Virus record (IMG/VR): IMGVR_UViG_2548877009_000010
Coordinates: 1 to 17,283 of that record
Direction: 5' to 3' (one strand)
Source of the DNA: a virus
Lineage: Duplodnaviria > Heunggongvirae > Uroviricota > Caudoviricetes
DNA: 17,283 nt
This document shows positions 3,001 through 6,000 of this stretch, one piece after another; positions within the stretch are counted from its first letter, which is position 1, and each line of letters starts with the position of its first letter. The position numbers were made by a program.

Positions 3001-6000
3001 TGTTTGCGCATTGATGCTGAGATACGTTTCCAGTCTTCGCGATCCTTGTCGATAACCTCATTTGTCGCCCAGCGATGGATGGTACCGTCAATGTTTCCTG
3101 CATCCACATCACCGGGCCAGAGGGCGCAGGCCAGTTCATTGTCGAGTGTTTTCCATGTCTGTTTGTATTCGCGGCGAACGGCAACAGTGACAGCCCCGGT
3201 TTTTTCAGCAGCGTTTTCAGTGTTCTGTTGGTTTACTCTGGAACGGGCGATATCAACGACAGATATGTATTTCCCGGTTTCCTTGCGTTCACTTTCGCGA
3301 CGTTTTTTCCAGATGCGCATCTCTGCCTGAATTTCGGGCCATTTAGCAGCAGGTTTACATTTATGCTTAACCCACCCGATGGCATGCAGCTTAAGCTCCG
3401 GATACATGGCGTTAACTTCTGGCATCTTCATCAACGCTTCAACGATATGGCCGTCGAATGTTGCCATGTCTTCCTGCAACAATTCCTGAGCGCTAATCAC
3501 CATATCAACAGTGATGTTTTCACATGCGTCGAACTTAACCATGACGGCGTTCTGTACTTCAGGGGCCAGATTGTCAAAAGTGATGTTCATCGGATCGGAT
3601 TCGGGTTCGACCGGGACAAAGGACGCAGACTCCTCATCCCAGCGGTTTTCCTGCATATATTCGGTATCCCAGGAATCGAGGGCAGGGCGGGGTATGCCGG
3701 GTTTATCCTTGCAGACAATAAATTTATAAGCGCAGTCCTGAGCTGCCGGGAATTGCTCCAGAAATTGCCAGTGAAATTTTGCGCGTGCGCGACGCTTATC
3801 ACCGGCTTCAATGGCAGTGGCCACCGCAACAGCGCTATCTTCTTCTATGGCCTGTTCGTCAGGAATAGCAGCGCAAATAAAGATTTTATTCATTGTGTTT
3901 TAACCTCATGACAGATTTCAGGGTGAACGAATCCCTGCCATTGCTGGCATTTTTAATCCGTTGGTATGGCGTTAATATGGCTGGCGGGTTATCCAGCCGG
4001 TGTTTCGTTATTCAGGTACAGCGATACTTTGTTTAACGGGAGACATTCACCGGAAATTTTTTGCTCGTCTCTTGCCTGATGGCAGGATTCTTTACTGGCA
4101 TAAATTCCGGTAATCACATTCTGTGGCTCACCTGTTATCAGAAAAACCGTCATCATCAGTGCAAACGCTGAACTCACTGCTGCCCTCCGAAAATGCCAAG
4201 TTCAAGAAGGGCAATTCTGGAGAGAATGGAATTATCATTGAGAAGATAAGGCTCATATTTTCTCATCCTGATGGCGTCCTCAGTAAACTCCCGGTTACTG
4301 AGCAGAATACCAATATTAAAACACCCTTCAGACGTATTAACGTTTGGTAGTGACGTTTCCATTATCGCGTCCTCAACAATGAATTTTGTGATGTGGTGCC
4401 TGGTGCCTCCAGGTGACGTTAACCAGTAAACAATTAACGTCGGAATACAGAATCACCCATAACGCTGTTTTTAGCTTTAACTGTTCCGCGTGCGCTTAGC
4501 CGCATTCACCGCATCACAAAATACACTTTAAAAATGGCGGATATCCATTTCTGCCGAATCACCAGAAAAGTGATAACAGAGGTTGTTGTGGCGGTGTTGT
4601 CACTCAGGCGTATGGTCAACCTGACAACCCGGTGCATTTTCTGGAACAATGGAGGAAGCCCCAGCCATACTTACCGCCGCGCCATTTCGCGGATTGCCAC
4701 AACCGGAAGCGCACGATCGAATTAAATTTAACGACGACATATACAGAGAGACTAACTTCGCCGTGCGCTTTCGTGTTATGCCCTGACTTTTCAGGGATAT
4801 GTTCTTTCAGTAAACTGTCAGTGCCGGATTCTTATCCGTGTCCGGCGCACGTGCTCTACCTCACCCGTGAATAAATTAATGATTAATTGATATTTTGTTG
4901 TTTGATTCAACTTTCCCATCGGATGTGTGATGCTTTAAATCACAGGAGTTAATACTGCTTGCTGTAAAATGATTTTCAAGGGGAGCTATTCGAATCCCTT
5001 TCTTTTTCATTAACAAGCCAAATCCTTTATTAATGATGTCCATTAATTCCAGAAAGTATTTTTCATGTAAATCCTGTTTATCAGAGAGCTGCTTCTCTTC
5101 GTACAGCCCGATAAAAGCTCGGCGTACGTTACCGGATATATTATCGATGGTTTCTTTTTCTACGGTACTCAGGTCAAGAGTGGCCAGTTGAGAACGAACT
5201 ATATTCGCTGCCATTTCCTGGAATGGTACTGGTAAATCTTTAAATTCCATCGTCAACCTCATCAGTCAGTGTTTCTGGCTAACCAGCGACGCGCGCCAGC
5301 TTCAGTTTTAAAAGTTTTGCTTCTGGTATACGTCATCGCGGTAAACGTGCCGTCCTGGTTAGGGAACACACCGCATACCAGAGATTCGTTGTTGCCAAGA
5401 TTGAGCGTATCCATGTTGACCTCATTTCCCCTTAACGCCGGGGCGCGGAACTAAAAACCTGCTGCGCTGTTATATAAAGTGTTCCCGCCGTCATGTTCAT
5501 ACGCCTCGGGCTGGCTACTTAACCCCTGACCACTGCCGGGTAACTCGAAGTATTGCCTGGCGTTCTGTGGGATGGGGTTGGAATAAAATAAAGTTTAGAA
5601 AAATGAACTTTACGAGTCAATGTTTTTTTATCAAAACATGACAGCAGGCAGCTGTTAAGCCATCAATATGATGGCGTACAGTAAATTAAGGGGATTAGTT
5701 AAATATCTTGTTGAATTTTAAAGCATACACCTAAAATGCGGGATATATCATCCAGCATGATTGATGGGTAGCGTGGATTTGAGGGAACTAAGAGGATGTC
5801 AGGTCCTTCTATTTCCAATTTACGAATTACTGGTGTAGTTGTTCCTTTTGGTAATGCTAGAACAATATTGCCATGTTGTGCGGTTCGATCTGGGTCGACA
5901 AAGACCGTTGATCCATTCGGAATTGATACACTTCCGCCTGCGGCAGACATACTATCGCTCTCTAGAACTACTGCAAATGTATTGACAGAAGTTTCACCAG

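What the first reader, a model, noticed from the sequence alone, without database searches (positions are those of the whole stretch)
4363..4875. About 510-bp ORF-free island in the early-left operon with several inverted repeats
No convincing ORF on the transcribed (minus) strand across 0.5 kb of otherwise densely packed phage DNA. It contains GACGTTAA...TTAACGTC (8-bp arms), CCCTGA-cttt-TCAGGG and GCCGGA...TCCGGC hairpins. Candidates are a small RNA, a decayed gene, a recombination site or a terminator cluster.
Basis: seen in the sequence. Interest (0 to 1): 0.4.

Follow-up and report, generated by a model that had tools for sequence, protein, structure and literature searches.

The report
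Variant dicF region upstream of dicB
The gene-free 0.5 kb is the long-known untranslated "dicF" stretch that sits in front of the cell-division inhibitor gene dicB in many E. coli prophages. Here it carries a shortened version of the DicF small-RNA hairpin that has lost the known target-pairing sequences.

Summary
Window 4363-4875 is exactly the gap between an upstream 128-aa ORF and dicB. It has no conserved ORF, folds better than all 100 shuffles, and holds the three inverted repeats reported.

It is not an unknown element. It aligns end to end with the E. coli K-12 Qin ydfC-dicB intergenic region, which yields the DicF small RNA through RNase III cleavage, RNase E cleavage and an intrinsic terminator.

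On the minus strand it reads, in order:
- two small hairpins;
- a long hairpin at the K-12 RNase III site;
- a roughly 120-nt multi-hairpin domain, also found in the phage P1 ban leader;
- the RNase E linker;
- a short terminator hairpin where DicF should be;
- a dicB leader resembling the STnc100 small RNA, closed by a long helix.

The DicF position is the unusual part. A 39-nt allele keeps DicF's first 10 nt and the base of its stem. It replaces the part that pairs with ftsZ, pykA and manX, and Rfam's DicF model does not detect it. This allele occurs in 442 of 5426 complete E. coli genomes. In at least one STEC genome it sits beside four canonical copies. The window's own copy also has a private G-to-A mismatch in the terminator stem.

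Verdict: a known system carrying a new variant; modest interest.

The parts
4876..5262 (-). Upstream ORF (128 aa) of the early-left operon. Its stop codon borders the island.
   Evidence: ORF list. phrog_6937, unknown function, E = 2e-76. No Pfam hit.
4823..4846 (-). No T-run follows it.
   Evidence: I17. The arms are conserved in K-12 Qin but the loop differs.
4781..4796 (-). No T-run follows it on the transcribed strand.
   Evidence: I16. One homolog has CTCTGA/TCAGAG, a change on both arms that keeps the pairing. The only terminator-like call here is on the opposite (+) strand.
4704..4773 (-). Long imperfect hairpin (arms 4756-4773 and 4704-4721). It is the counterpart of the K-12 RNase III site that creates the 5' end of the 190-nt DicF precursor.
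   Evidence: Longest inverted repeat in the island (I1). Present in the minimum-energy folds of both the window and K-12. Counting 190 nt back from the K-12 DicF 3' end lands in the 3' arm. RNase III dependence in K-12 is from PMC10448788.
4585..4703 (-). Multi-hairpin domain ('module C'), function unknown. A closing stem (4697-4703/4585-4591) encloses hairpins at 4677-4692, 4641-4664 and 4596-4628. It forms the 5' body of the DicF precursor and is shared with the phage P1 ban leader and with cdtI/Stx2c phages.
   Evidence: Alignments A2 and A4. Consensus fold of 147 distinct sequences gives 26 pairs. 98.5% of cells are paired, against 30-55% when the partners are slid; 5 pairs show changes on both sides. 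No Rfam family matches.
4569..4584 (-). Single-stranded linker AACCTCTGTTATCAC. It is the counterpart of the K-12 RNase E cleavage context just 5' of DicF.
   Evidence: Near-identical to K-12. One variable column among 25 contexts. RNase E dependence in K-12 is from PMC10448788.
4530..4568 (-). Short, non-canonical allele at the DicF position: UUUCUGGUGAUUCGGCAGAAAUGGAUAUCCGCCAUUUUU. The terminator hairpin is at 4536-4555 and the T-run at 4530-4534. This copy has a G-to-A change that puts a mismatch in the stem.
   Evidence: Alignment with K-12. Allele census. Folding energy is -7.4 kcal/mol here against -11.1 for the consensus. The consensus is called terminator-like in L001 but the window copy is not. 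No RF00039 hit, against 76.7 bits for K-12.
4378..4529 (-). Structured dicB leader. It is a sub-threshold relative of Rfam STnc100. The closing helix is the counterpart of the RNase III site that makes the 72-nt DicF 3' end in K-12.
   Evidence: Folds. Consensus fold of 17 representatives. STnc100 scores 32.6 bits here and 32.9-43.8 bits on the homologous leaders, against a gathering score of 47. The same leader precedes kil/kilR. The 72-nt species is described in PMC5069750.
4363..4377 (-). dicB ribosome-binding region. The Shine-Dalgarno sequence GAGGA is at 4370-4374 and the ATG at 4360-4362.
   Evidence: Sequence. Invariant in 25 contexts. The AUG is predicted to be paired and the Shine-Dalgarno to sit in a loop.
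4174..4362 (-). dicB, the cell-division inhibitor. It is the gene this leader serves.
   Evidence: Pfam DicB, 115.7 bits. RefSeq annotation of near-identical loci.

Best explanation
The island is the untranslated dicF region of a Qin-type dicBF (early-left, pL-like) operon of a lambdoid prophage.

When the CI-like repressor (5699-6337) is relieved, leftward transcription passes the small ORFs and enters this roughly 510-nt structured RNA. By homology with E. coli K-12, the following steps are expected:
- RNase III cuts the long hairpin at 4704-4773.
- RNase E cuts the linker at 4569-4584.
- Some transcripts end at the terminator hairpin at 4536-4555.
- Transcripts that read through carry the leader at 4378-4529. 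RNase III cuts its long closing helix just upstream of the dicB ribosome-binding site.

The region therefore acts as a processing and attenuation hub. It limits and tunes expression of the toxic division inhibitor DicB and releases a small RNA.

In this allele the released RNA is about 39 nt. It keeps only DicF's first 10 nt and the base of its stem. It lacks the sequences that pair with ftsZ, pykA and manX, and most of the xylR site. I therefore predict that it does not work as canonical DicF, and that its main role is as the operon's internal terminator or attenuator. In this particular window that terminator is weakened by a private stem mismatch.

Shown here: the homology, the anatomy, the loss of the pairing sequences and the allele's distribution. 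Inferred from K-12: the cleavage sites and termination. Not shown: any expression or activity of this allele.
For: - **Synteny and gene identity.** The order is repressor, Cro, YdaT; then DUF1391 (YdfA-like), a 128-aa ORF, the island, DicB, DUF1482 (YdfD-like), exonuclease, xis and int.
- **Homology.** The island aligns end to end with the K-12 ydfC-dicB spacer that contains dicF, at a mean column identity of 88%.
- **K-12 biochemistry.** The 190-nt species depends on RNase III, the 53-nt species on RNase E, and the transcript starts at dicBp (PMC10448788). The terminator-derived 3' end and the RNase III-derived 72-nt 3' end are described in PMC5069750. Both RNase III-dependent ends fall in the two long helices predicted here.
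- **Structure.** Folding z-scores are -3.7 for the window and -4.1 for K-12. Pairing is kept in 98.5% of cells over 147 distinct sequences. The leader structure is kept in 17 representatives that sit upstream of different genes.
- **The short allele.**
  - The upper hairpin is replaced: 27 nt become 10 nt.
  - Rfam's DicF model gives no hit even at E <= 10, while K-12 scores 76.7 bits.
  - Windowed duplex energies for pykA, manX and ftsZ are no better than shuffles. Canonical DicF gives -20.5 (pykA), -30.1 (manX) and -20.3 (xylR) at the published sites.
  - The consensus form is called terminator-like: 6 pairs, 5 of them G-C, followed by ATTTTT.
- **Non-coding status.**
Against: - There are no transcript or processing data for this allele or this prophage. 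All cleavage sites are transferred from K-12 by alignment and by RNA sizes read off gels.
- My duplex test did not single out the validated DicF-ftsZ pairing either (-14.9 against a shuffle mean of -17.2). The claim that ftsZ control is lost therefore rests on the absence of the 3'-region sequence, which was shown genetically to be required in K-12, and not on energies.
- Covariation is thin. Only 5 of 26 pairs in the multi-hairpin domain and 3 of 32 in the leader show changes on both sides. The number of such pairs is not above shuffles (268 of 500), and most changes separate whole phage families.
- The short RNA still has a free 5' stretch, a G-C hairpin and a U-tail, which is the layout of an Hfq-dependent small RNA. 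A trans-acting role cannot be excluded.
- The window's G-to-A change could be a sequencing error.
Confidence: 0.8

Rival explanations
1. The short allele is a working trans-acting small RNA with its own targets. On this view the DicF position is a swappable cassette: the upper hairpin is exchanged between phages to retarget the regulator, while the 5' seed UUUCUGGUGA and the terminator base are kept.
For: At least five alleles of the GGCGG...CCGCC + U-run hairpin sit in the same place upstream of the same leader: canonical, short, an alternative-loop form, the Rac-SA53 type and the Shigella phage 75/02 type. The short allele is widespread, in 442 of 5426 genomes, and also occurs in E. albertii. 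Of the 33 copies retrieved, 31 keep a perfect stem and one keeps it through a G-U pair. The RNA has a single-stranded 5' end, a G-C hairpin and a U-tail.
Against: No targets are known. The conserved 5' stretch is only about 10-15 nt. There is no enrichment of complementary sites in the window. The copies were retrieved with a pattern that fixes most of the allele, so their uniformity is partly by construction. Compared with the Shigella phage 75/02 allele, the short allele looks like an internal deletion of the upper stem: the GGCGGA start is kept and the 3' stem arm differs at one base (GATATCCGCC against GATGTCCGCC). That pattern fits decay as well as it fits design.
Confidence: 0.3
2. The multi-hairpin domain (4585-4703) is a cis-acting regulator of the terminator that follows it, working as an attenuator, a riboswitch-like sensor or a put-like antiterminator. 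It would decide whether transcription reaches dicB or kil.
For: In all four families found, the domain is followed within a few tens of nt by an intrinsic terminator of unrelated sequence. The families are canonical DicF, the short allele, cdtI/Stx2c phages (just downstream of the early-left promoter pL) and the P1 ban leader (just downstream of P1ban). The structure is kept across these families. No N-like antiterminator was recognised in the window or in phage cdtI. The literature I could read does not explain how transcription passes the DicF terminator.
Against: I found no conserved alternative (antiterminator) pairing. The association could simply reflect a precursor body plus its 3' end that moves as one unit. 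In K-12 the domain is known only as part of the 190-nt processing intermediate. There is no experimental hint of ligand or polymerase interaction.
Confidence: 0.12
3. The island is a decayed protein-coding gene.
For: Mechanical ORFs of 45-80 aa exist on both strands. The 46-aa minus-strand ORF is intact in 66 of 119 homologs.
Against: None of the ORFs passes a family threshold in Pfam or PHROGs. Most are frameshifted or interrupted by stops in homologs. Indels relative to K-12 are 1, 2, 4 and 17 nt. The K-12 counterpart is an experimentally characterised untranslated region. Conservation follows the helices and not codons.
Confidence: 0.02
4. The conserved non-coding blocks serve mainly as DNA: as homology patches for recombination between mosaic phage genomes, or as a protein-binding site.
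For: Sub-modules occur independently in different phages and next to different genes (dicB, kil and others; P1, P7, D6, cdtI, Stx phages). Alleles of hairpin b and of the DicF position are found in recombinant combinations. The leader core is nearly invariant in sequence, which is more than pairing alone requires.
Against: The orientation relative to transcription is always the same. The helices are maintained with wobble and compensatory changes. The K-12 RNA ends map to these helices. Any recombination role would be a by-product of conservation and not an alternative function.
Confidence: 0.08

Closest known systems
dicF region of the dicBF operon (ydfABC-dicF-dicB-ydfD), Qin cryptic prophage, E. 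coli K-12
   Same: Same position between the small early-left ORFs and dicB. Collinear alignment over the whole spacer. The RNase III hairpin, multi-hairpin precursor body, RNase E linker, first 10 nt of DicF, GGCGG/CCGCC stem base with U-run, and structured dicB leader are all shared.
   Different: The gene upstream of the spacer differs (a 128-aa phrog_6937 ORF in place of ydfB/ydfC). The DicF hairpin is 19 nt shorter and its upper part is replaced, so the ftsZ, pykA and manX pairing sequences and half of the xylR site are missing. The repressor is an S24 LexA-like CI and not DicA.
DicF small RNA, Rfam RF00039
   Same: Same locus, same 5' end (UUUCUGGUGA) and same terminator base.
   Different: No match to the covariance model even at E <= 10, while K-12 scores 76.7 bits and the Rac-SA53 allele 41.1 bits. 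39 nt against 53-58 nt.
STnc100 (Rfam RF02076) and the related PasD small RNAs of Salmonella and pathogenic E. coli prophages
   Same: The dicB leader (4330-4537) matches the full-length model. Hits recur on every homologous leader, at 32.6-43.8 bits.
   Different: All scores are below the gathering score of 47. STnc100 and PasD proper lie in the late region, near Q, lysis genes or stx (bioRxiv 10.64898/2026.05.13.724894, PMC12370729). This element is the 5' leader of division-inhibitor genes.
'dicF-like region' in the ban operon leader of phage P1 (AF234172, 68791-68892)
   Same: It shares the multi-hairpin domain at about 79% identity, with compensatory changes (GTTGTCA/TGACAAC against GTTGCCA/TGGCAAC), and is followed by an intrinsic terminator.
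   Different: It lies directly behind a C1-controlled promoter and ahead of tRNA genes and ban. Its terminator hairpin is unrelated (GCCCATCTTCGGGTGGGC). There is no dicB.
Leaders of kil/kilR in Rac-type prophages and Shigella Stx phage 75/02
   Same: Same leader core and same GGCGG...CCGCC + U-run hairpin immediately upstream.
   Different: The downstream gene is kil and not dicB. The hairpin loops differ. The sequence upstream of the hairpin differs and lacks DicF's 5' end.

Membership tests
dicF region of a dicBF-type operon (locus homology) | Lies between the small early-left ORFs and dicB, on the same strand, downstream of a CI/Cro-type immunity region | tested here: met
   Pfam finds DicB, DUF1482, DUF1391, Peptidase_S24+HTH and P22_Cro in the expected order. 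RefSeq annotation of near-identical loci agrees.
dicF region of a dicBF-type operon (locus homology) | Collinear sequence homology with the K-12 ydfC-dicB spacer | tested here: met
   Alignment A1, mean column identity 88%, covering the whole spacer.
dicF region of a dicBF-type operon (locus homology) | [quoted passage not shown] | not testable with these tools
   Only the helices and linker that carry the K-12 sites can be shown to be conserved.
DicF small RNA (Rfam RF00039) | Scores at or above the family gathering score (48 bits) | tested here: not met
   No hit at gathering or at E <= 10. The positive control, K-12, scores 76.7 bits.
DicF small RNA (Rfam RF00039) | 5' end UUUCUGGUGA preceded by the RNase E linker | tested here: met
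   Identical in the alignment with K-12.
DicF small RNA (Rfam RF00039) | 3'-region sequence that pairs with the ftsZ ribosome-binding site, and with pykA and manX | tested here: not met
   The segment is replaced. Duplex energies are no better than shuffles. The genetic requirement for this region is from PMC5069750.
DicF small RNA (Rfam RF00039) | Rho-independent terminator hairpin with a U-run | tested here: inconclusive
   The consensus short allele qualifies. The window copy has an A-C mismatch, is not called by the scan, and folds differently.
DicF small RNA (Rfam RF00039) | Inhibits cell division when expressed | not testable with these tools
   Needs expression in vivo.
STnc100 (Rfam RF02076) | Scores at or above the family gathering score (47 bits) | tested here: not met
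   32.6 bits, E = 4.8e-5 at 4330-4537. Homologous leaders score 32.9-43.8 bits.
STnc100 (Rfam RF02076) | Full-length match to the consensus structure (closing helix plus internal hairpins) | tested here: met
   Model positions 1-206 are aligned, and the helices coincide with the predicted fold.
Intrinsic (Rho-independent) terminator | G+C-rich hairpin directly followed by a T-run on the transcribed strand | tested here: inconclusive
Only 4530-4555 has this layout, and it is weakened in the window.

The most novel reading that the evidence does not exclude
The dicF position is a polymorphic small-RNA cassette. A conserved precursor body and a conserved leader upstream of division-inhibitor genes flank a terminator hairpin whose upper part has been exchanged at least five times. 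The short allele would then be an unrecognised fifth dicF-type locus in O157:H7-type genomes, present in 8% of complete E. coli genomes, with either no regulatory activity or different activity. The conserved 120-nt domain that always precedes a terminator in lambdoid phages and in P1 may itself be a cis-regulator of that terminator.
Probability: 0.2. Interest if true: 0.55.

Novelty: new variant of a known kind. Interest (0 to 1): 0.3.

Why it matters
DicF is one of the oldest known bacterial small RNAs. In EHEC it is counted as 'four copies' that link oxygen to virulence. Work on its distribution has looked at near-identical copies, and Rfam-based annotation cannot see this allele.

A common fifth locus has the same flanks but lacks the ftsZ, pykA and manX pairing region. 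That changes how dicF dosage should be counted. It also gives a natural 'loop-swap' series for testing which part of DicF does what.

The same comparison shows that the precursor body and the dicB/kil leader are conserved, mobile RNA modules of unknown function. They are shared with P1 and related to STnc100.

For annotating this window the result is plain: the gap is explained and is not a new kind of element.

Tried and rejected
- **Genome-contig scan.** The 14-base pattern was too short for 596 Gb. It returned chance matches in unrelated phyla, and only the E. albertii locus (L172) was real.
- **Full-length RNAduplex.** It gave large-loop artefacts and was uninformative. I replaced it with 18-nt windowed duplexes and shuffles. 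Even that test does not single out the validated ftsZ pairing.
- **Diversity of the short allele among 25 contexts.** This cannot be used as evidence of constraint, because the loci were retrieved with a pattern that fixes most of the allele.
- **Search for the complement of the short RNA's 5' end in the window.** 5 matches at up to 3 mismatches, against 1.8 expected; 9 of 200 shuffles did as well. One is the locus itself and none is convincing.
- **Papers not held.** Melson and Kendall 2019 (the four EHEC copies) and Faubladier and Bouché 1994 (dicF-related prophage sequences). Whether the latter already sequenced a short allele could not be checked.
- **Text search for the allele's sequence in the paper library.** No paper.
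- **Search for an N-like antiterminator next to the multi-hairpin domain in phage cdtI.** Only families of unknown function.
- **Absence of RefSeq annotation over the short allele.** This is not informative, because canonical dicF also shows 'none' in most records.
- **Resemblance of CCCTGAAAAGTCAGGG to lambda boxB (GCCCTGAAAAAGGGC, recalled from memory).** Not pursued. The predicted stem and loop differ, no boxA-like sequence precedes it, and no N gene was found.
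Full report
**1. The observation**

The window is a lambdoid prophage arm. On the minus strand it carries int (1-1131), a small ORF where close relatives annotate an excisionase (xis), an 823-aa exonuclease (1422-3893), a DUF1482 protein (3989-4177), DicB (4174-4362; Pfam DicB, 115.7 bits), a 128-aa ORF (4876-5262; phrog_6937), a DUF1391 protein (5262-5414) and an S24/HTH CI-like repressor (5699-6337). On the plus strand, a P22-type Cro and a YdaT-like gene follow.

The finding's coordinates, 4363-4875, are exactly the gap between the dicB start codon and the stop codon of the 128-aa ORF.

The longest repeat in the island was not noticed. It has 12-nt arms at 4704-4715 and 4762-4773.

Mechanical ORFs of 45-80 aa exist on both strands. 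None matches a Pfam or PHROG family below E = 0.01; the only hit at all was the 45-aa ORF against Rpn3_C at E = 0.082, far under its cut-off. In about 120 homologous loci they are mostly frameshifted or interrupted by stops. The 80-aa ORF is intact in 2 of 119, the 63-aa ORF in 15 of 120, and the 47-aa ORF in 20 of 120. The first codons of dicB are intact in 117 of 118.

The minus-strand RNA folds at -173.2 kcal/mol, against -150.7 +/- 6.0 for shuffles (z = -3.7; 0 of 100 shuffles fold as well). The island is therefore non-coding and more structured than chance.

**2. What it is**

A megablast of 4200-5000 finds the region in E. coli chromosomes next to genes annotated dicB (best hit 97.8%).

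In K-12 MG1655, dicB lies in the Qin prophage in the operon ydfA-ydfB-ydfC-dicF-dicB-ydfD. The window's island aligns collinearly, from its first hairpins to the dicB start, with the 567-nt K-12 ydfC-dicB spacer that contains dicF (alignment A1; mean column identity 88%).

That spacer has been characterised experimentally:
- The operon transcript starts at dicBp.
- RNase III creates the 5' end of a 190-nt species.
- RNase E creates the 5' end of the 53-nt DicF (PMC10448788).
- The 3' end comes either from a Rho-independent terminator or, in read-through transcripts, from RNase III cleavage that gives a 72-nt form (PMC5069750; PMC9438474).

**3. Anatomy (minus strand, 5' to 3'; coordinates)**

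(a) 4823-4846 and 4781-4796 are two small hairpins in the 3' UTR of the upstream ORF. Neither is followed by a T-run on the transcribed strand. This first 100 nt is the least conserved part among related loci.

(b) 4704-4773 is a long imperfect hairpin. It appears in the minimum-energy folds of both the window and K-12. Counting 190 nt back from the K-12 DicF 3' end lands in its 3' arm. This identifies it as the RNase III substrate. That step is inferred from RNA sizes and not mapped here.

(c) 4585-4703 is a multi-hairpin domain that I call module C. A closing stem encloses three hairpin arms. An RNAalifold consensus over 147 distinct sequences gives 26 pairs. 98.5% of cells are paired, against 30-55% when the partners are slid. 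However, only 5 pairs show changes on both sides, and the number of such pairs is not above shuffles. The structure is therefore maintained, but the independent compensatory events are few.

(d) 4569-4584 is the linker that carries the RNase E site in K-12. It is almost invariant.

(e) 4530-4568 is the DicF position, described in section 4.

(f) 4378-4529 is the dicB leader.
- A helix of about 20 bp pairs AAAGUGUAUUUUGUGAUGCGGUG with CACCACAUCACAAAAUUCAUU.
- The K-12 72-nt DicF 3' end falls in the 5' arm of this helix, so it is the second RNase III substrate. This too is an inference.
- The dicB Shine-Dalgarno sequence (4370-4374) follows directly. In the predicted ensemble the AUG is paired and the Shine-Dalgarno sits in a loop.

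**4. The DicF position**

K-12 reads UUUCUGGUGA-CG-UUUGGCGG-[27-nt upper hairpin]-CCGCC-CUUUUU.

The window reads UUUCUGGUGA-UUCGGCAG-[AAAUGGAUAU]-CCGCC-AUUUUU.

The first 10 nt and the stem base are kept, and the upper hairpin is replaced.

**4a. Detection by Rfam**

| Sequence | Score against the Rfam DicF model (gathering score 48 bits) |
|---|---|
| Canonical K-12 DicF | 76.7 bits |
| Rac-SA53 allele | 41.1 bits |
| Short allele (window and L001) | no hit, even at E <= 10 |

**4b. Target pairing**

In K-12, genetics showed that the 3' region pairs with ftsZ and the 5' end with xylR.

In 18-nt windowed duplex predictions, canonical DicF recovers three published sites:
- xylR: nt 4-18, -20.3 kcal/mol.
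- pykA: nt 25-42, -20.5 kcal/mol.
- manX: nt 37-54, -30.1 kcal/mol.

The short allele does no better than shuffles on ftsZ, pykA and manX. It gives only a weak, shifted xylR pairing.

The same test did not single out the canonical ftsZ pairing either. The loss of ftsZ control is therefore argued from the missing sequence and not from energies.

**4c. Distribution**

With the same upstream anchor, a scan of IMG/VR (a viral contig collection) gave about 110 canonical, 6 short and 2 alternative-loop alleles.

A scan specific for the short allele gave 30 viral contigs. Counting also L001, L122 and the window, there are 33 copies:
- 31 have the perfect stem GGCGGA/TCCGCC.
- One has GGTGGA, which keeps the pair as G-U.
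- Only the window has GGCAGA.

The short allele is in 442 of 5426 complete E. coli genomes, many of them O157:H7 or other STEC, with a best identity of 99.0%. It also occurs in an E. albertii genome (L172).

Canonical DicF is in 4003 of 5426 genomes. Listed O157:H7 chromosomes hold four places, which matches the 'four copies' in the literature. One STEC record, NZ_CM167684.1, holds four canonical places plus one short place. In such genomes the short allele is thus an additional, fifth locus.

**4d. Terminator strength**

The consensus short allele is called terminator-like: 6 pairs, 5 of them G-C, a loop of 8, then ATTTTT. It folds at -11.1 kcal/mol.

The window's G-to-A change creates an A-C mismatch. 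The minimum-energy fold drops to -7.4 kcal/mol and pairs the 5' UUCUG with the newly created CAGAA. The scan no longer calls it a terminator.

In this window the internal terminator is therefore probably leaky and the small RNA less stable, unless the base is a sequencing error.

**5. Relatives of the sub-modules**

A distant-mode search of phage genomes shows that the island is mosaic.

*Module C:*
- It occurs in phage P1 directly behind the C1-controlled ban promoter, where the record already labels it 'dicF-like region'.
- It also occurs in cdtI and Stx2c phages just downstream of the early-left promoter pL.
- Compensatory differences support its helices. For example, GTTGTCA/TGACAAC becomes GTTGCCA/TGGCAAC in P1, and hairpin b reads CTGG/CCAG, CGGGG/CCCCG or CTGGG/CCCAG.
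- In all four families, module C is followed within a few tens of nt by an intrinsic terminator of otherwise unrelated sequence.

*The dicB leader:*
- It also precedes kil in Shigella Stx phage 75/02 and kilR in Rac-SA53. In each case a further allele of the GGCGG...CCGCC + U-run hairpin lies just upstream.
- It precedes other genes in P1-like contigs.
- Rfam's STnc100 model hits every one of these leaders full-length but below threshold: window 32.6, K-12 34.4, L001 34.2, 75/02 32.9 and Rac-SA53 43.8 bits, against a gathering score of 47.
- STnc100 proper, and the related PasD small RNAs, lie in the late region near Q, lysis genes or stx. The dicB/kil leader is therefore a relative and not a member.

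**6. Mechanism**

*Shown here:*
- homology of the whole island to the K-12 dicF region;
- conservation of both long helices, the linker, the terminator base and the leader;
- loss of the DicF target-pairing segment;
- non-coding status.

*Inferred from K-12:*
- RNase III cleavage at the two helices;
- RNase E cleavage in the linker;
- partial termination at the hairpin.

*My reading:*
- The island is the processing and attenuation hub of the early-left operon. It restricts and tunes expression of the toxic DicB and of the downstream DUF1482 lysis-protein homolog.
- The short hairpin acts mainly as the internal terminator.
- The released 39-nt RNA is not a functional equivalent of DicF.

**7. 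Rivals**
- A retargeted trans-acting small RNA remains open (0.3).
- Cis-control of the terminator by module C is speculative (about 0.1).
- A decayed gene is rejected.
- A DNA-level recombination role is at most secondary.

**8. Novelty**

The locus type has been known since 1989-1990, and dicF-related prophage sequences were reported in 1994. I know that paper only by its title, which appears in a reference list, because the paper itself is not held.

The held literature analyses only near-identical copies. It contains neither the term for natural DicF variants nor the allele's sequence.

I therefore file this as a new variant of a known kind, of modest interest.

Noticed in passing
window 16561-16812 (+): Three tRNA genes in a row: Met-type CAT, Arg TCG and Arg TCT. 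From memory, this resembles the ileZ-argN-argO cluster found upstream of stx in Stx-converting phages. The window ends shortly after them.
   Followed up: partly
window 4552 (the G-to-A within GGCAGA, minus strand): A private substitution in the terminator stem of the short DicF allele. The other 32 copies retrieved have G at this position, and no E. coli genome exceeds 99.0% identity over 96 nt. It creates a CAGAA that can pair with the RNA's own 5' UUCUG. It could be a real weakening mutation or a sequencing error.
   Followed up: partly
L123 (phage P1, AF234172) 1478-1686 and 2842-2961: P1 carries the multi-hairpin 'dicF-like' domain plus a terminator right after the ban promoter. About 1.2 kb further on it has a separate sub-threshold STnc100-like element (33.4 bits). 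The two RNA modules of the island therefore also occur, unlinked, in a non-lambdoid phage.
   Followed up: partly
L251 1201-1480 (Shigella phage 75/02 Stx) and L252 1157-1390 (Rac-SA53): kil/kilR is preceded by the same structured leader as dicB, and by its own allele of the GGCGG...CCGCC terminator hairpin. Two unrelated division inhibitors share one RNA leader. The Rac allele scores 41.1 bits against Rfam DicF, below the threshold of 48.
   Followed up: partly
L249 885-1375 (phage cdtI) and the Stx2c phages: The multi-hairpin domain plus a strong terminator (GCGGTACCAG...CTGGTACCGC TCTTTTT) lies in the leader between pL and the first early-left ORF, where lambda has nutL. No N-like protein was recognised downstream.
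   Followed up: partly
window 4781-4796: On the plus (antisense) strand, this hairpin is followed by a T-rich tail and is called terminator-like. A weak promoter-like site lies at 4621-4650 (+). Both counts are at chance level, so an antisense RNA is only a remote possibility. On the minus strand the sequence CCCTGAAAA resembles lambda boxB, but the predicted stem and loop differ.
   Followed up: no
window 1422-3893 (-): RefSeq annotates the 823-aa protein as an exonuclease in related loci. In Pfam it matches only a C-terminal Rv2179c-like 3'-5' exoribonuclease domain (residues 642-813). The first roughly 640 residues have no family assignment.
   Followed up: no
L419 1858-2068 (IMG/VR contig): In this one copy, the sequence diverges completely from all other families immediately after hairpin c of the multi-hairpin domain. 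The closing stem and the DicF-type hairpin are missing. It may be a recombination breakpoint inside the domain.
   Followed up: no
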